Under the pieces are notes generated by a model that saw only the letters and a program-made list of their open reading frames with translations, was not told the DNA's origin and searched no databases. Made by a program: the position numbers and the translations under genes. A stretch of 64,000 nt of DNA from Candidatus Zixiibacteriota bacterium (GTDB lineage Bacteria; Zixibacteria; MSB-5A5; GN15; FEB-12), in the NCBI GenBank assembly GCA_041742355.1, contig JBGSIV010000139.1, positions 511 through 64,510 of the forward strand, in the 5' to 3' direction. Below are positions 40,266-54,081 of this stretch, piece by piece. The first letter of the stretch is position 1. Every line of letters starts with the position of its first letter.

Positions 40266-40988
40266 GTGAAAGACCAGGGGAGAAAGCGATCTCGGTTTCC
40301 GGACACACGTTGGTCGCTCGTAAGGCGAGCGGCCGGCAGTGACGACGGCGAGCGACAAGATGCTCTATCCCAGTTGCTCATAATCTACGCACCGGCACTG
40401 CTCGCCTACCTTATTAGAGGTCGTCGTATCCCGCCGGACTTGGCCGACGACATTCTGAACGATTTCATTCTCGACAAGATTCTGGAGCGAAGGATTATAG
40501 ACCGGGCAGATTCTAGTCGTGGTCGTTTCCGGAGTTTCATCCTCAAATCCCTCAACAACTACGCTACGACTAAGCTGCGCAGGGAGTACGTCCTGCGAGC
40601 GCGATTAGCCGGTTTCAGTGAAGCTGAGTTCGATGTGGCTCCTCCATCGATGGCAGTCGACGCCTTTGAACTGGAGTGGGTGCGACAGGTGGTTCAAGAT
40701 GCACTTGCCATGATGCAGGAGGATTGCATTAAGAGGCACCGTGACGCCGAGTGGAAGCTGTTCTCGCTGCGCGTAGTCGGGCCGCTCATTGAAGATGTTG
40801 AACCGGTGGAGTATCGAGAATTGATTGAGCAGCTCCACCTGGATACTCCACGACAGGCAATCAATCTCCTCGCCACGGCAAAGCGGACGTTCCTGCGGCA
40901 CCTGCAGACGGCCATCAGTCGTTATGCCGAAGATGGGCAGGAAGTCAGCGCGGAAATCGAGGACCTAAGAAGAATTGTTGGACGTTAA
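40266..40988 (+). CDS. Sigma-70 family factor, ECF43-like (Ser/Thr-kinase-associated type)
   Basis: 240 aa with a GTG start. The N-terminal motif is FPDTRWSLVRRA. ADDILNDFILDKI and FRSFILKSLNNYATTKLRRE look like region 2. TPRQAINLLATAKRTFLRHLQTAI looks like region 4. A kinase lies two genes downstream. Confidence 0.65.
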   Translation: MKDQGRKRSRFPDTRWSLVRRAAGSDDGERQDALSQLLIIYAPALLAYLIRGRRIPPDLADDILNDFILDKILERRIIDRADSSRGRFRSFILKSLNNYATTKLRREYVLRARLAGFSEAEFDVAPPSMAVDAFELEWVRQVVQDALAMMQEDCIKRHRDAEWKLFSLRVVGPLIEDVEPVEYRELIEQLHLDTPRQAINLLATAKRTFLRHLQTAISRYAEDGQEVSAEIEDLRRIVGR

Positions 40989-41023
40989 GGCGCAACCGGG
41001 TCTTGCTCATAGAGTAGTATTTA

Positions 41024-41569
41024 ATGGCTGACGCTGCGGTAGCGAGGTGTATGAAGCAGAGACAAGTGATGGATCCGAGAAGCAAGAGCATTATTAGAGG
41101 GCTTCTGGACCCGGGCGGCGATTTGGCTTCGGTTTGGTCTGCTTCGGATTGTGCCGCCATGATGGAGCACCTGATGGAGACGCCACTCCTCGCAGAATCT
41201 GACCGATTCGCAGAGTTGGCCGGCACAGTGATGCAGCGGATTGATGAGTTGATAAAGGCCACTGGGAACCAGACGTTCTACGAACTACTTAGCTCAGGAC
41301 GAGCCTCTTTGATGCTTCTGACGATGGTCAAAGACTACGCTAAGGTAGCATGTGCCACAGGTGAAGACCTTCCTCCCGATGTGGGCCGAGTGCTGTACGT
41401 GGCGTCCATTCTTGCGGCGATGCGCCGGGGGGACTGCATAACAACACTTTCTGCTGCTGCCGTTGAAAAGGAGCGGCGCCGGTGTCTGACGCTTATCTGG
41501 TTGCCAGATAGAGTTCGATCGCTGTTGGCCAATTGGGGCGAGGAGAGACATTTGAGGATTCAGGAGTAA
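41024..41569 (+). CDS. Hypothetical protein (helical)
   Basis: 181 aa with no motif I recognise. Its TAA stop overlaps the ATG of the kinase (TAATG at 41567-41571). Confidence 0.5.
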   Translation: MADAAVARCMKQRQVMDPRSKSIIRGLLDPGGDLASVWSASDCAAMMEHLMETPLLAESDRFAELAGTVMQRIDELIKATGNQTFYELLSSGRASLMLLTMVKDYAKVACATGEDLPPDVGRVLYVASILAAMRRGDCITTLSAAAVEKERRRCLTLIWLPDRVRSLLANWGEERHLRIQE

Positions 41570-42729
41570 TGCCAATAATTGAGCCGGGTTCGCTTGTTCG
41601 GGGGACTTATGATGTGGAGCGGCTCCTCGGCGAGGGGGCCTTTGCCGAGGTCTACCGTGTTAAGCATCGGTTCATGGGTCGTCAGGCCATGAAGGTTTTT
41701 AAGGCACCGGGTGCTACAATTGAAGAGATTGAGCGTGACCTGGCCGAGGCCATTCTCCTCTCTGTTCTTCGCCACCCGAACGTTGTCGAGGTATTCGACG
41801 CCAATGTCCTTGAGGCGAACGGGAACCAGTTTGGCTACTTCACTATGACGTATGTGCCAGGCGGCACTCTGGAGCGCTACTGGCGTTCCTTTGGCGCGAA
41901 CCTGATGCCGGTGGATCAGGTTGTGGAAATCGGTCGACAGGTGTGTCGGGGACTGGCTACGGCACACGCATCGAAGCCGCCTATTGTCCACCGTGACGTG
42001 AAGCCTCAGAATATTCTGGTAGGATTCGACGGAGATGGACTTAAGGTAAGGCTCAGCGATTTCGGTCTGGCCAAACGGGTCAACCCCCTCACTCTGTTGG
42101 CAACTTCAAAAGGTACCTTAGGTTTCAAGCCGCCCGAATCACTCGCAAATGTCGACTCGTGCGCCGCCGATGTCTGGGCGGTCGGAGCGACGCTGTACCT
42201 ATTGCTTACGGACGAAATGCCGTTCCCTCTACTTGGGATGCGTGACGCTGAGGATGCCAATCGATTCCTGAGACCGATCCGCCCGCCAAGCCTATATAAT
42301 GTCTACGTTGACGCAGGGCTTGAAGCCATTCTCTATCGTTGCCTCGCAGCCCGGCCCGGCGACCGTTATGCTGATGCGAATCAGTTACTTACGGATCTCG
42401 ATCGCTGGTCGCCGGCTGATCCTCGATCAGTCGGTCACGTGAGCCAGTCGAGCTTGGGCCCTAAGGCTTCGATGGATTCACGCTCCCCCCACGACTTCAA
42501 GGCCGAAGCCCACCAGGCGCTTCAGGAAGCCCAGGAGATGGCCCAGAATCCTGCCAACCTGACGGCAGCGGCCGATCTGCTTGAGGAGGCTATAAGCAAA
42601 GATCCCTCGTTGCGACAACGCTATGAGTCGCAACTCAAGCTTTGGCGCCGCGGTGTCATGCACGTGTCCACAGCAGATATGAAGAAGAGACCGGGATATC
42701 CCCCCCGGGGCAAAGACCACGACCGATAA
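41569..42729 (+). CDS. Ser/Thr protein kinase (Hanks type) with a short helical C-terminal tail
   Basis: Contains LGEGAFAEVYRV, AMKVF, HRDVKPQNILV and DFGLAK. The ATG at 41569 is preceded by AGGAG. The track ORF starts 36 nt upstream. Confidence 0.85.
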   Translation: MPIIEPGSLVRGTYDVERLLGEGAFAEVYRVKHRFMGRQAMKVFKAPGATIEEIERDLAEAILLSVLRHPNVVEVFDANVLEANGNQFGYFTMTYVPGGTLERYWRSFGANLMPVDQVVEIGRQVCRGLATAHASKPPIVHRDVKPQNILVGFDGDGLKVRLSDFGLAKRVNPLTLLATSKGTLGFKPPESLANVDSCAADVWAVGATLYLLLTDEMPFPLLGMRDAEDANRFLRPIRPPSLYNVYVDAGLEAILYRCLAARPGDRYADANQLLTDLDRWSPADPRSVGHVSQSSLGPKASMDSRSPHDFKAEAHQALQEAQEMAQNPANLTAAADLLEEAISKDPSLRQRYESQLKLWRRGVMHVSTADMKKRPGYPPRGKDHDR

Positions 42730-52339: not shown

Positions 52340-52393
52340 GCTCCTCGGACACGGATAGTGTTCAAGTAGCGGCGTAAAATCAGGAGGTCAGAT

Positions 52394-53401
52394 ATGGGAC
52401 TGTGGAAGAGGCTCTTTGGTCGCAAAGCCAAACACGCAGCGGCACTTCCGGCCGTCGGGCCGGAGCATCTCCACCGCGACTTTGGTAGAGGTTCTCGTGA
52501 ACCTTCCGGAGCCGGAGCCCGCCAGATGCTTGCCGCACGAGATTCTTGGAACGCCAACGACTACGATACGGCTTACAACCAGTTTCACGACGCGACCGTT
52601 GAGGGTTTGGATGGACCATGGCTTTCAGTCGCGCACTGCTGCCTCGGGCAGATCTGCGTTAAGCGACGAGAGCTACTGGCGGCAGTGAGTCACTTTCTCA
52701 AGTGCCTGGAGATACCTTATCGAGACTCGGGCGACGCCTGGCAGTCTGCTCGACGTCTTCATATCATTTACCGCGAAGCAGGTCGACCGAAGGAAGCGGC
52801 TGCCCTGCGCGAACTTGCAGAAGCAGCTAACAAACAACACGGTTGGGCTCATACTCCACAAGTCGAAGCCGAGCTTCGACAGTTGACCAGGACGTGGCTA
52901 TCAACGTCAACTGGCGCTGCTGTCCAGGCGTCGTCGGATGGAGGCAATCGGGCATCCAAGAGCCAAAGTGAATCTCCACTGGTTCGTGCACTAATTCATG
53001 GAAACGACGATGAGTCGAATGATGCGCTTGCCGAAGTGAAGCGGTTGGCCCAGTCTGGCAATGACTCTGGTTTAGAGGCTCTGGCGTTAGCCATCCGCAC
53101 AAAAGCCGGAAAACCTGATGCAAAGATGTATGTTCCGGGCGTTTTCGTCGGCGCATCGGATTATGAAGTAGATTACGGTGCAAGGCTGGTGCAGCTTGCA
53201 GCTGCTGGACGCCTCTGGGAGGATCCACACGAAACTGGGCGTCTGATTTCCCGGTTTGTGTCGAACAATGAGCCGGACGCACTCCATCCGCTGCTGACAA
53301 GGGTTCAAAGAGCGGGCGGACAATCTCAAGAGGAGGCATTCATATACATCTACTCATATTGCAAGTACTACTCTGCTCTGCAGAAATCGCTCCGAACATG
53401 A
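52394..53401 (+). CDS. TPR-like helical repeat protein
   Basis: 335 aa. YDTAYNQFHDATVEG...GQICVKRRELLAAVSHFLKCLEI...LHIIYREAGRPKEAAALRELAE looks like TPR repeats. Confidence 0.5.
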   Translation: MGLWKRLFGRKAKHAAALPAVGPEHLHRDFGRGSREPSGAGARQMLAARDSWNANDYDTAYNQFHDATVEGLDGPWLSVAHCCLGQICVKRRELLAAVSHFLKCLEIPYRDSGDAWQSARRLHIIYREAGRPKEAAALRELAEAANKQHGWAHTPQVEAELRQLTRTWLSTSTGAAVQASSDGGNRASKSQSESPLVRALIHGNDDESNDALAEVKRLAQSGNDSGLEALALAIRTKAGKPDAKMYVPGVFVGASDYEVDYGARLVQLAAAGRLWEDPHETGRLISRFVSNNEPDALHPLLTRVQRAGGQSQEEAFIYIYSYCKYYSALQKSLRT

Positions 53402-53706
53402 GAGTCAGCAAGGAATGTTCTCTACGGGTACTGCCATCACTGCAGTGATGGGAAACTGATGGCCGGAGTTCACCTTTGGCCGCGTGATTTTGGAGGAGAA
53501 TCCGTGGACATAGACAACATTCACCCCGACTGACAAAGGCCAGGATCAAAGATGTTCTGCGGCCAATCCCGGGGTTCGCAGAAGCCGTCCCTCTGGTGGC
53601 GGAAGTTCGTGACAACGAGCTGAAAGACGCCGTGCAGATGTGTTTCACGTCTGGTGAGTGAGCCATTTGTGCGGAGGACAGATGTCCTGCTGAGAGGAGG
53701 TTACAA

Positions 53707-54081
53707 GTGCCCGCGATTAGGCAGTATCGTTGTAGCTTCGGTTGGTTCTCTTTGCCTTCAGGCTGGGGTGGTGTCGGTTATGTAACTGACAACTCTGGAA
53801 ATCGCGTCATCCTTCGACATCCGTGTGAAGAGTTTGTGATCCGCGATGTTCTTGGACCTGAGGCTACGCGACAACTGATTGATGAGCGAACCGGAGTTTG
53901 GAGTGACTGTGTCTGTGCCGAGTGTCTTTGCATGTTTATGCTGGACTTGAAACGGGATTGCAGGGCATGTCCTGAGTGTCGATCAACGGCAGTGAGGAGT
54001 ATGCGTGAGAGCGTAGGAGAGAAATGCCCGAAGTGCTCGCAGGGAACGATCGAGGAACTCGACACTGGGATCTGGACGTGA
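53707..54081 (+). CDS. Small zinc-ribbon protein
   Basis: 124 aa with a GTG start. CVCAECLC, CRACPECRS and CPKCSQG are Cys pairs. Confidence 0.45.
   Translation: MPAIRQYRCSFGWFSLPSGWGGVGYVTDNSGNRVILRHPCEEFVIRDVLGPEATRQLIDERTGVWSDCVCAECLCMFMLDLKRDCRACPECRSTAVRSMRESVGEKCPKCSQGTIEELDTGIWT

What the first reader, a model, noticed from the sequence alone, without database searches (positions are those of the whole stretch)
40266..54081. Self-contained accessory Hsp70 / GrpE-like / J-like machine embedded with an ECF43-like sigma, a Ser/Thr kinase, zinc-ribbon proteins, TPR proteins and a Clp-N protein
Twelve co-directional plus-strand genes lie with mostly short gaps (the largest is about 300 nt, before the final small zinc-ribbon gene) and two stop/start overlaps. 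In order they are: a sigma factor, an unknown protein, a Hanks kinase, a J-like/zinc-ribbon protein, a multi-zinc-ribbon membrane protein, a GrpE-like protein, an 829-aa atypical Hsp70, a TPR-TM-coiled-coil protein, a stand-alone Clp-N domain, a protein with a CFIATACYGS box, a TPR protein and a small zinc-ribbon protein. The cluster lies in a lower-GC island next to a type IV restriction-like gene. It is therefore very unlikely to be the housekeeping dnaK-dnaJ-grpE set. It looks like an ATP-driven chaperone cycle repurposed as a sensor or switch and coupled to phosphorylation-controlled transcription. I am not aware of a described system with this composition. Possible roles are stress or invader sensing, or regulated remodelling of a membrane complex.
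Basis: partly seen in the sequence, partly recalled or inferred. Interest (0 to 1): 0.85.

Follow-up and report, generated by a model that had tools for sequence, protein, structure and literature searches.

The report
Accessory Hsp70 module with kinase, sigma
A horizontally acquired gene cluster, conserved in many bacterial phyla, encodes a specialised Hsp70 ATPase with its own GrpE-fold exchange factor and two membrane partners, often linked to a Ser/Thr kinase and a sigma-like protein; I found no published description or function for it.

Summary
The twelve co-directional ORFs exist as described, in a low-GC island that ends at a tRNA-Asn gene. Only part of the set is one system.

**Conservation in 19 related loci** (Proteobacteria, Planctomycetota, actinomycetes, metagenomes):
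- The J-like/zinc-ribbon protein (g04), the GrpE-like protein (g06) and the 829-aa Hsp70 (g07) are always together.
- The TPR-TM protein (g08) is present in 15 loci, the kinase in 12, and the sigma-like protein and g02 in 9 each.
- Clp-N (g09) is present in 1 locus. g10-g12 are in none.

- g04 and g05 are one gene in relatives and are split here.
- g06 gives no Pfam or NCBIfam hit, but its AlphaFold model matches only GrpE structures.
- The J-like call is weak: no HPD motif, hhalign 93%, Foldseek not significant.
- The sigma and Clp-N calls are below threshold. The ECF43 hallmark is absent.
- g12 shows no coding signature.

**Interpretation:** this is not a housekeeping dnaK operon and matches no PADLOC system. 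The most likely function is an envelope-anchored, chaperone-gated signalling switch. An anti-phage role is a serious rival. The literature available to me describes nothing with this composition.

The parts
40266..40988 (+). g01, 240 aa: sigma-like protein (ECF-type sigma2/sigma4-like, below threshold)
   Evidence: TIGR02937 sigma70-ECF E=5.6e-4, below cut-off. Sigma70_r2 is hit in 2 of 8 homologs, best E 9e-4. The top PDB profile hit is RpoE/SigE, E 0.063. hhalign against RpoE/SigW is collinear but not significant. Present in 9 of 19 related loci. Co-diverges with the Hsp70, r=0.84.
41024..41569 (+). g02, 181 aa: conserved helical protein of unknown function, always next to the sigma-like gene
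   Evidence: No Pfam, NCBIfam or PADLOC hit and no PDB profile hit. Homologs are present in 9 of 19 loci, next to g01 wherever g01 is detected.
41533..42729 (+). g03, 398 aa: soluble Hanks-type Ser/Thr kinase with a helical C-terminal tail
   Evidence: Pkinase E=4.4e-39. The lysine, HRD and DFG motifs are visible in the sequence. No TM helix. Present in 12 of 19 loci, 11 of them co-oriented. r=0.94 with the Hsp70.
42861..45026 (+). g04, 721 aa (680 aa from the NCBI-called start): N-terminal J-like domain without HPD, a helical middle region and two zinc ribbons. It is the first part of a gene that is split here.
   Evidence: hhalign against J domains 93.4%. The top PDB profile hits are DnaJ J domains, E 0.022-0.06. 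No Pfam DnaJ hit. Foldseek is not significant; J domains rank 7, 9 and 13. Present in 19 of 19 loci.
45043..46275 (+). g05, 410 aa: second part of the same gene, with a TM hairpin and several zinc ribbons
   Evidence: It aligns to the C-terminal part of single 943-1207-aa proteins in L008, L010, L011, L013 and L014. Two TM helices. The frame change is visible at 45000-45043.
46318..47028 (+). g06, 236 aa: GrpE-fold protein, the predicted private nucleotide exchange factor
   Evidence: AF2 model with core pLDDT above 90. The 12 best Foldseek PDB hits are all GrpE/GrpEL1, E 5.5e-5 to 6e-3; the next hit has E 0.49. Two of 10 distant family members hit PF01025 below threshold. Immediately upstream of the Hsp70 in 19 of 19 loci. 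The family has 990 clusters at 50% identity.
47097..49586 (+). g07, 829 aa: atypical Hsp70. NBD at 1-366, an insert of about 120 aa in place of the canonical linker, an SBD-beta-like domain at about 487-590, and a long helical C-terminal region.
   Evidence: PF00012 E=3e-76. Below the DnaK and HscA equivalog cut-offs. NBD motifs are intact. hhalign of the C-terminal part against the DnaK SBD gives 93.7%. About 830-aa homologs of 50-70% identity occur in many phyla.
49583..50437 (+). g08, 284 aa: cytoplasmic TPR, one TM helix, and a predicted periplasmic coiled coil
   Evidence: TPR_2 above cut-off. One TM helix. Present in 15 of 19 loci. Proteins at this position carry OmpA (L003, L005) or PG_binding_1 (L011) C-terminal domains.
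50456..50962 (+). g09, 168 aa: stand-alone Clp-N-like protein, an occasional accessory
   Evidence: Clp_N E=0.0022, below cut-off. hhalign against the ClpA/B/C N domains gives 85% over both repeats. A homolog occurs only in L014, at the same position.
50981..52339 (+). g10, 452 aa: unknown N-terminal region plus a CFI-box-CTERM domain. Window-specific cargo, probably co-transcribed.
   Evidence: NF041770 75.8 bits, cut-off 40. No homolog in any related locus. No PDB hit.
52394..53401 (+). g11, 335 aa: unknown protein. Window-specific cargo and the last gene before a terminator-like hairpin at 53460-53482.
   Evidence: No Pfam or PADLOC hit. Not conserved. Hairpin.
53707..54081 (+). g12, 124-aa ORF with CxxC pairs: doubtful gene, probably not part of the system
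   Evidence: GC1/2/3 of 0.54/0.52/0.52 shows no coding pattern. 305-nt gap after a terminator-like site. Not conserved.
54608..54681 (-). tRNA-Asn gene at the right edge of the low-GC island
   Evidence: ARAGORN, Rfam and the GC step.

Best explanation
**What it is (shown).** This is a horizontally mobile module built around a fourth kind of bacterial Hsp70, distinct from DnaK, HscA and HscC. The invariant core has three parts:
- g07, the 829-aa Hsp70. Its ATPase motifs are intact and it has an SBD-beta-like domain, but it lacks the canonical interdomain linker.
- g06, a private GrpE-fold protein encoded just upstream.
- g04/g05, a large zinc-ribbon protein anchored by a TM hairpin, with an N-terminal J-like domain that lacks HPD.

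A TPR-TM protein (g08) usually follows. Its outer part is a coiled coil here and an OmpA or PG_binding_1 domain in relatives. About half of the loci, this one included, add a soluble Hanks kinase (g03), a sigma-like protein (g01) and g02.

**How it most likely works (inferred).**
- g04/g05 and g08 hold the Hsp70 at the inner face of the membrane.
- g06 resets the Hsp70 by nucleotide exchange.
- The Hsp70 cycle keeps a signalling client (the kinase, g02 or the sigma-like protein) in an inactive state. It releases the client when the envelope-facing part of g08 changes state, or when competing substrates titrate the Hsp70.
- The released kinase then activates sigma-dependent transcription of the cluster and of its variable downstream cargo (here g09-g11).

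This logic parallels DnaK/DnaJ/GrpE control of sigma32 and BiP control of IRE1/PERK. The trigger could be envelope damage or an invader.
For: **Component identities**
- Hsp70 NBD, E 3e-76. ATPase motifs are intact. The SBD-beta-like domain gives hhalign 93.7%.
- GrpE fold: the top 12 Foldseek hits are all GrpE, with sub-threshold PF01025 hits in distant family members.
- J-like domain: hhalign 93%, and the best PDB profile hits are J domains.
- TM helices occur only in g05 and g08.
- Proteins at the g08 position carry OmpA or PG_binding_1 domains in relatives.
- The kinase is catalytically competent.
- The sigma-like signals are weak but agree with each other.

**Linkage**
- g04+g06+g07 are present in 19 of 19 loci, g08 in 15, the kinase in 12, and sigma and g02 in 9 each.
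- Identity matrices of the partners track that of the Hsp70: kinase r=0.94, sigma 0.84, g04 0.69, g06 0.68.
- FHA-domain genes lie downstream in L010 and L027.

**Precedents**
- DnaK keeps sigma32 inactive, and specialised Hsp70s co-evolve with dedicated J proteins (PMC8215388).
- Hanks kinases directly activate ECF sigma factors (PMC13147305; PMC7826278).
Against: - Seven of 19 loci lack both the kinase and the sigma-like protein. The core must therefore have a function that needs neither.
- The J-like domain lacks HPD and the Hsp70 lacks the DVLLLD-type linker, so canonical J-stimulated allostery may not operate.
- The J-like fold match is not significant.
- The sigma assignment is below threshold in every test.
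- No conserved promoter motif was found upstream of the sigma genes.
- g04/g05 is split here and might be defective.
- No experiment or complex model links any two components.
Confidence: 0.4

Rival explanations
1. It is an anti-phage or conflict system. The Hsp70 core acts as an NTP-dependent thresholding device or assembling effector that triggers growth arrest or death on infection. The kinase and sigma-like protein are regulators, and the variable downstream genes are effectors.
For: - The cluster lies in a foreign low-GC island at a tRNA gene, next to a GmrSD/NsnA-like HNH nuclease and a ParB-methyltransferase.
- A 57%-identical Hsp70 carries a C-terminal TIR domain.
- Relatives lie beside DO-GTPase2 and CHAT-Clp_N genes (L008), type I restriction genes (L010 and L013), an NB-ARC-TPR STAND protein (L005), a RelE toxin (L028) and an integrase (L014).
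- The downstream cargo is variable.
- Cross-phylum identity of 60-70% indicates horizontal transfer.
- Hsp70 homologs have been predicted in conflict systems before (PMC7159879; PMC11090510).
Against: - No PADLOC model matches any component except generic kinase models.
- No recognisable toxin or nuclease is present in g01-g12.
- Several relatives sit among housekeeping genes (L011, L026, L030).
- The module is absent from the viral contigs and plasmids searched.
- The TIR-fused relative has none of the partner genes.
Confidence: 0.3
2. It is a dedicated chaperone machine for a membrane or envelope client, as proposed for HscC with DjlB/DjlC. It would fold, insert or extract a specific membrane or cell-wall-associated protein. 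The kinase and sigma-like protein would only tune its expression.
For: - Two membrane partners are present, with peptidoglycan-binding domains at the g08 position in relatives.
- The core exists without the kinase or sigma-like protein in 7 of 19 loci.
- The SBD-beta-like domain is retained.
- Specialised Hsp70s with dedicated, membrane-anchored J proteins are known (PMC8215388).
Against: - No conserved candidate client gene accompanies the core.
- According to the same review, specialised Hsp70s have dispensed with exchange factors. This one keeps a strictly linked exchange factor.
- Patchy, horizontally transferred distribution is unusual for an assembly factor that has no linked client.
Confidence: 0.17
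3. It is the housekeeping dnaK-grpE-dnaJ operon of this organism in a divergent form.
For: It holds Hsp70, GrpE-fold and J-like genes in one cluster.
Against: - It scores 276 bits against TIGR02350 (cut-off 822) and 268 against NF001413 (cut-off 648).
- It has no canonical linker and no HPD motif.
- The cluster is compositionally foreign.
- Close homologs occur in actinomycetes and proteobacteria. From general knowledge, those groups have canonical dnaK operons.
Confidence: 0.01

Closest known systems
DnaK-DnaJ-GrpE control of sigma32 (E. coli heat-shock feedback)
   Same: An Hsp70, a J protein and a GrpE-type exchange factor act on a sigma factor. The chaperone holds the factor inactive until it is titrated away (PMC8215388).
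   Different: Here the Hsp70 is not a DnaK equivalog, the J-like domain lacks HPD, and the machine is membrane-anchored. A Hanks kinase and g02 intervene, the sigma-like protein is ECF-like rather than sigma32, and all genes lie in one mobile cluster.
HscC with DjlB/DjlC (third bacterial Hsp70 type)
   Same: A specialised, sporadically distributed Hsp70 is encoded with dedicated J proteins, one of them membrane-inserted (PMC8215388).
   Different: HscC works without an exchange factor and has a short lid. g07 has a private GrpE-fold partner, a 120-aa insert and an extended helical C-terminal region, and its partner lacks HPD.
PknT-EcfP and PknS-EcfK (ECF43 sigma factors activated by Hanks kinases)
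   Same: A Hanks kinase is encoded next to an ECF-type sigma with no recognisable anti-sigma factor (PMC7826278; PMC13147305).
   Different: Those kinases are transmembrane. ECF43 sigma factors carry an uncharged QTTA motif with a phospho-threonine in sigma2.2. g03 is soluble and g01 keeps acidic residues there. No Hsp70 is reported in ECF43 neighbourhoods.
GAP1-N2 GTPase-centric conflict systems, HSP70-GrpE-DnaJ theme, and DO-GTPase-tubulin-HSP70 systems (Kaur et al. 2020, PMC7159879)
   Same: Accessory HSP70 with GrpE and a DnaJ- or TPR-fused partner, membrane and cell-wall-facing components, kinases in a sister theme, and a bias towards actinobacteria and planctomycetes.
   Different: Those systems are defined by GTPases, GAP1 and FNIII-repeat proteins. 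None was detected among g01-g12 or in L005. A DO-GTPase2 gene lies next to L008 only, on the other strand.
CoCoNuT type III CnuD Hsp70-like proteins (PMC11090510)
   Same: An Hsp70-like NBD/SBD recruited into a predicted defence operon, sometimes with a kinase.
   Different: CnuD has degenerate ATPase motifs and is tied to McrB/McrC homologs and HEAT repeats, with no GrpE or J partner. g07 has intact motifs and no McrBC neighbour.
BiP-ERdj4 control of IRE1/PERK (eukaryotic unfolded-protein response); DjlA-DnaK activation of the Rcs phosphorelay (both from general knowledge)
   Same: An Hsp70 with a membrane-bound J protein gates a membrane-proximal kinase pathway that ends in transcription.
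   Different: No homology beyond the Hsp70. The analogy is one of logic only and was not tested here.

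Membership tests
Hsp70 (PF00012) | Actin-like nucleotide-binding domain with the phosphate-binding and catalytic motifs | tested here: met
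   PF00012 E=3e-76, 257 bits, cut-off 20.6. DLGTTNS, the catalytic-lysine region, EP.AA.LAYG, DFGGGTFD and VGGST are all aligned to DnaK.
Hsp70 (PF00012) | Substrate-binding beta-sandwich followed by a helical lid | tested here: met
A weak phmmer stretch covers 489-625.
Canonical DnaK (TIGR02350 / NF001413 equivalogs) | Score above the curated equivalog cut-off; conserved hydrophobic interdomain linker | tested here: not met
   276.5 bits against 822.55, and 268.4 against 648. About 120 aa of unrelated sequence lie between the NBD and the SBD, and there is no DVLLLD-like linker.
GrpE (PF01025) | Match to the sequence profile | tested here: not met
   No hit for g06 in Pfam at E<=0.01 or in NCBIfam at E<=1. 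A profile of 30 homologs finds no PDB sequence. Two of 10 distant family members reach PF01025 at E 1.5e-4 and 0.016, below cut-off.
GrpE (PF01025) | GrpE fold: paired long helices followed by a compact beta domain | tested here: met
   AF2 model with pLDDT above 90 for residues 70-190. The 12 best Foldseek PDB hits are all GrpE/GrpEL1, probability 0.99-1.00, E 5.5e-5 to 6e-3, 114-123 columns aligned. The next hit has E 0.49.
GrpE (PF01025) | Nucleotide-exchange activity on its Hsp70 | not testable with these tools
   Needs biochemistry. Adjacency to the Hsp70 in 19 of 19 loci is only circumstantial.
J domain (PF00226) | Match to the profile, and a four-helix J fold | tested here: inconclusive
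   No Pfam DnaJ hit in 20 homologs even at E<=10. Ten of the 15 PDB profile hits are J domains, best E 0.022. In the Foldseek search of an AF2 model (pLDDT 84), J domains reach only E 5-6, probability 0.2-0.33.
J domain (PF00226) | His-Pro-Asp motif between helices II and III | tested here: not met
   The aligned position reads (K/R)LG in the family, followed by a loop of about 19 residues.
ECF sigma factor | Sigma70 region 2 and region 4 profiles above threshold | tested here: inconclusive
   TIGR02937 19.6 bits against a 42.9 cut-off. Sigma70_r2 is hit in 2 of 8 homologs at E about 1e-3. The top PDB hit is RpoE at E 0.063. hhalign against RpoE/SigW is collinear but has 0.9% probability. Motifs resembling DxxDxxQE and F..WL..I..N can be seen by eye.
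ECF43 group | Uncharged sigma2.2 motif (QTTA) with a phospho-acceptor threonine; co-encoded Hanks kinase | tested here: not met
   The kinase is adjacent, but sigma2.2 reads LADD(I/L)L(N/Q)DF with acidic residues kept. The hallmark is taken from PMC13147305. The ECF group classifier was not available.
Hanks-type Ser/Thr kinase (PF00069) | Kinase domain with the catalytic lysine, HRD and DFG | tested here: met
   PF00069 E=4.4e-39. AMKVFK, HRDVKPQN and DFGLAK are in the sequence.
Clp_N (PF02861) | Two Clp-N repeats | tested here: inconclusive
   Pfam 18.6 bits against a 20.7 cut-off, one short stretch. The L014 homolog carries a 'faint' precomputed Clp_N hit.
CFI-box-CTERM (NF041770) | Score above the curated cut-off | tested here: met
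   75.8 bits against 40, residues 355-424 of g10.
GAP1-N2 / DO-GTPase conflict systems (Kaur et al. 2020) | TRAFAC GTPase(s) with GAP1 and FNIII-repeat components | tested here: not met
   No GTPase, FNIII or tubulin hit in g01-g12 or in the L005 neighbours. DO-GTPase2 appears only beside L008, on the opposite strand. GAP1 itself has no model in the libraries used.
Known defence systems in PADLOC-DB 2.0 | Match of the system's signature proteins | tested here: not met
   Only g03 matches, and only generic kinase models (mad6, PD-T4-6). g05 gives only marginal hits (E 0.007 and 0.053). g04, g06-g11 and g12 give no hit.

The most novel reading that the evidence does not exclude
This is a previously undescribed and widespread class of bacterial signalling or immune sensors. 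A dedicated, membrane-tethered Hsp70 ATPase cycle, with a co-evolved GrpE-fold exchange factor and an HPD-less J-like adaptor, works as the thresholding switch. The switch gates a Hanks kinase and an ECF-type sigma factor in response to envelope or invader cues. In effect it would be a bacterial counterpart of the BiP-IRE1/PERK unfolded-protein response, packaged as a mobile operon.
Probability: 0.25. Interest if true: 0.85.

Novelty: new variant of a known kind. Interest (0 to 1): 0.62.

Why it matters
- Reviews recognise three bacterial Hsp70 types (DnaK, HscA, HscC). They hold that specialised types have dispensed with exchange factors (PMC8215388) and call the other DnaK derivatives 'dark matter' (PMC13580251).
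- This family is a well-defined fourth type. It is about 830 aa long, conserved along its whole length, and strictly linked to a GrpE-fold protein so divergent that Pfam and NCBIfam do not recognise it.
- It is common. The GrpE-like marker alone has 990 clusters at 50% identity.
- Because half of the loci wire it to a kinase and a sigma-like protein, it offers a compact, testable case of an ATP-driven chaperone used as a signalling switch.
- If it proves to be an immune sensor, it would add a chaperone-based mechanism to bacterial defence.
- It also supplies material for new profile models of a GrpE-like family and a J-like family.

Tried and rejected
- **Sequence profiles for g06.** Pfam, NCBIfam and a PDB profile search found nothing. 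Only the fold comparison resolved it.
- **Fold comparison for the J-like domain.** It gave no significant match.
- **Further tests of the sigma call.** The PDB profile search, Pfam on homologs, hhalign and tblastn against plasmids all stayed below significance or empty.
- **Promoter search.** I looked for a conserved ECF-type promoter upstream of nine sigma genes with a dyad enumeration. It found nothing beyond shuffled controls. Sigma70-type promoter and terminator scans were at chance level.
- **Integration site.** No att-like copy of the tRNA-Asn 3' end was found in the window.
- **Mobile-element carriage.** The module was found neither in viral contigs nor in plasmids.
- **g02 and g10 against PDB sequences.** Nothing informative.
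- **Rfam.** Only the tRNA.
- **GAP1-N2, DO-GTPase or CoCoNuT membership.** Rejected, because the defining GTPase or McrBC components are missing.
- **Housekeeping dnaK operon.** Rejected.
- **Canonical dnaK elsewhere in this genome.** Not testable.

Full report
**1. The observation**

Gaps are short, 16-131 nt. The exception is 305 nt before the last ORF. The pairs g02/g03 and g07/g08 overlap.

GC content falls from 0.63-0.65 to 0.51-0.59 between about 13.6 and 54.6 kb, then rises again. A tRNA-Asn gene sits exactly at the right edge, at 54608-54681 on the minus strand.

Genes g01-g11 show a normal coding pattern, with GC1/2/3 of about 0.63/0.44/0.60. Their GC3 is far below that of the genes beyond the tRNA, which is 0.77-0.79. 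The cluster is therefore compositionally foreign.

Just upstream lie three genes:
- a GmrSD_N+HNH nuclease (it also hits the PADLOC NsnA model);
- a MerR-family gene;
- a ParB_N-fused DNA methyltransferase.

**2. Domain calls**

*Firm calls*
- g07 is an Hsp70: PF00012 E=3e-76 over residues 8-366.
- g03 is a Hanks kinase, E=4e-39, with the lysine, HRD and DFG motifs.
- g08 has a TPR_2 hit above cut-off and one TM helix.
- g10 has a CFI-box-CTERM domain above cut-off.
- g05 has two TM helices and several CxxC pairs.

*g06, the GrpE-like protein.* No Pfam or NCBIfam model recognises it. A 30-sequence profile finds no PDB sequence. All 54 homologs retrieved are unannotated. Its AlphaFold model is confident over residues 70-190. 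In Foldseek the model hits GrpE or GrpEL1 in all of the first twelve places, with E from 5.5e-5 to 6e-3. The next hit has E=0.49. A full-library HMM search finds 990 clusters at 50% identity. Two of ten distant members reach PF01025 below threshold. The GrpE-like call therefore fails on sequence profiles and passes on fold.

*g04, the J-like domain.* Pfam sees no J domain in 20 homologs. The best PDB profile hits are J domains, at E 0.02-0.06. An AlphaFold model (pLDDT 84) has a helix pattern compatible with a J domain, but Foldseek is not significant. The HPD motif is replaced by (K/R)LG and a long loop. I treat the domain as J-like but unproven.

*g01, the sigma-like protein.* Every test gives a weak signal, and the signals agree with each other:
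- TIGR02937 E=5.6e-4.
- Sigma70_r2 in 2 of 8 homologs.
- RpoE as the top PDB hit, E=0.063.
- A collinear but non-significant hhalign alignment.

The ECF43 hallmark is an uncharged QTTA motif in sigma2.2 (PMC13147305). It is absent here, because the family keeps LADDLLQDF.

*The remaining genes*
- g09 is Clp-N-like but below threshold, with hhalign 85% over both repeats.
- g11 gives no TPR hit.
- g12 has no coding signature and follows a terminator-like hairpin.

**3. The Hsp70 itself**

It scores far below the DnaK and HscA equivalog cut-offs. Its ATPase motifs are intact. Residues 367-486 replace the canonical linker. Residues 487-748 then align to the DnaK substrate-binding domain, beta-sandwich and helical lid, at 93.7%; the helical region continues to the C terminus.

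Homologs of about 830 aa and 50-70% identity occur in Phycisphaerae, Armatimonadia, several Deltaproteobacteria lineages, Thiodictyon and Reyranellaceae. Actinomycete homologs are 39-45% identical. Variants exist:
- One has a C-terminal TIR domain.
- Two have a second N-terminal NBD.
- One locus has a separate NBD-only paralog.

**4. Conservation of the neighbourhood**

I assembled 19 independent loci of at least 16 kb. I scored them with iterated HMMs.

| Gene | Loci with it (of 19) |
|---|---|
| g04 | 19 |
| g06 | 19 |
| g08 | 15 |
| kinase g03 | 12 (11 co-oriented) |
| sigma-like g01 | 9 |
| g02 | 9 |
| Clp-N g09 | 1 |
| g10-g12 | 0 |

- In relatives, g04 and g05 form one protein of 943-1246 aa. 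Here a frame change at 45026/45043 splits them.
- Shorter natural versions that lack the g05 part also exist.
- Proteins at the g08 position end in OmpA (L003, L005) or PG_binding_1 (L011) domains.
- Pairwise identities of the partners track those of the Hsp70: kinase r=0.94, sigma 0.84, g04 0.69, g06 0.68 and g08 0.23. The module therefore travels as a unit.
- It was not found in viral contigs or plasmids.

**5. Context**

Some neighbours are typical of mobile or defence regions:
- DO-GTPase2 and CHAT-Clp_N (L008);
- type I restriction genes and a transposase (L010, L013);
- an integrase (L014);
- an NB-ARC-TPR STAND protein (L005);
- RelE (L028).

Other loci sit among housekeeping genes (L011, L026, L030). 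No PADLOC model matches any component except the kinase.

**6. Mechanism**

*Shown:* the parts list, the membrane topology and the linkage.

*Inferred:*
- g06 is the exchange factor of g07.
- g04/g05 and g08 tether the ATPase under the membrane.
- The outer part of g08 reads the wall or envelope.
- The Hsp70 cycle holds a signalling client until it is triggered.
- The kinase and the sigma-like protein then turn on the cluster and its variable cargo.

Three precedents support this logic. DnaK controls sigma32, and specialised Hsp70s co-evolve with dedicated J proteins (PMC8215388). Hanks kinases activate ECF sigma factors directly.

The main weakness is that 7 of 19 loci lack both the kinase and the sigma-like protein. 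The core must therefore act on its own. That leaves room for two rivals: a defence or conflict role, and a dedicated membrane-client chaperone.

**7. Comparison with what is known**

The closest described systems are the HSP70-GrpE-DnaJ theme of the GAP1-N2 GTPase systems and the DO-GTPase-tubulin-HSP70 systems (PMC7159879), and the CnuD proteins of CoCoNuT type III (PMC11090510). Their defining GTPase or McrBC components are absent here.

A 2026 review calls bacterial DnaK derivatives unexplored 'dark matter' (PMC13580251). Eight full-text searches found no description of this gene set. I therefore rate it a new variant of a known kind, of moderate to high interest.

**8. Verdict**

- The accessory, repurposed-chaperone reading is supported in outline.
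- The ECF43 label and the firm J-domain and Clp-N labels are not supported.
- The mechanism remains to be tested.

Noticed in passing
window 32536-34074 (+): A 512-aa ORF carries long in-frame tandem repeats: a 39-nt period at 33538-33771 and about twenty 15-nt units at 33685-34115. Neither it nor the 444-aa ORF just upstream (31194-32528) has a Pfam or PADLOC hit.
   Followed up: partly
window 17355-30208 (-): A second co-directional block lies in the same low-GC island. It holds four paralogous genes of about 650 aa (fn3 + BACON + beta-propeller), an FG-GAP protein, an unknown 273-aa gene and a CHAT-fn3 protease. The CHAT part of the protease matches the PADLOC SAVED_CHAT model at 1.4e-13. 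It may be a separate conflict-type system.
   Followed up: partly
window 54608-54845: tRNA-Asn marks the right border of the 40-kb low-GC island. Four copies of a 17-nt tandem repeat lie just outside it, at 54763-54845. No att-like duplicate of the tRNA end was found in the window.
   Followed up: partly
window 35505-39481: A ParB_N-fused N6/N4 DNA methyltransferase (PADLOC MTase_II, 8e-108), a MerR-family gene and a GmrSD_N+HNH nuclease lie directly upstream of the cluster.
   Followed up: partly
P0068 (locus L012 10001-13363): A 57%-identical Hsp70 of this family is fused to a C-terminal TIR_2 domain. It sits behind a sigma54-activator gene, near an HSP90-like HATPase and PIN/toxin-antitoxin genes, with none of the usual partner genes.
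   Followed up: partly
P0040, P0082; locus L028 7749-8879: Some family members carry an extra N-terminal Hsp70 NBD (about 1250 aa in total). One locus encodes a separate NBD-only Hsp70 of 376 aa between the kinase and the GrpE-like gene.
   Followed up: no
window 47097-49586, residues about 370-486 of g07: The 120-aa insert that replaces the Hsp70 interdomain linker is beta-rich and well conserved. By eye it resembles a carboxypeptidase-regulatory-like or PEGA beta-sandwich. This was not tested.
   Followed up: no
window 46318-47028, residues 19-35 of g06: The GrpE-like family has a conserved N-terminal peptide (LD..RQ..FP.EFRI), separated from the GrpE core by a variable linker. It may be a pseudo-substrate for the Hsp70 substrate-binding domain, like the N terminus of canonical GrpE.
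   Followed up: no
loci L010 15508-16038 and L027 13661-14173: Small FHA-domain proteins, which read phospho-threonine, are encoded downstream of the module in two kinase-containing relatives.
   Followed up: no
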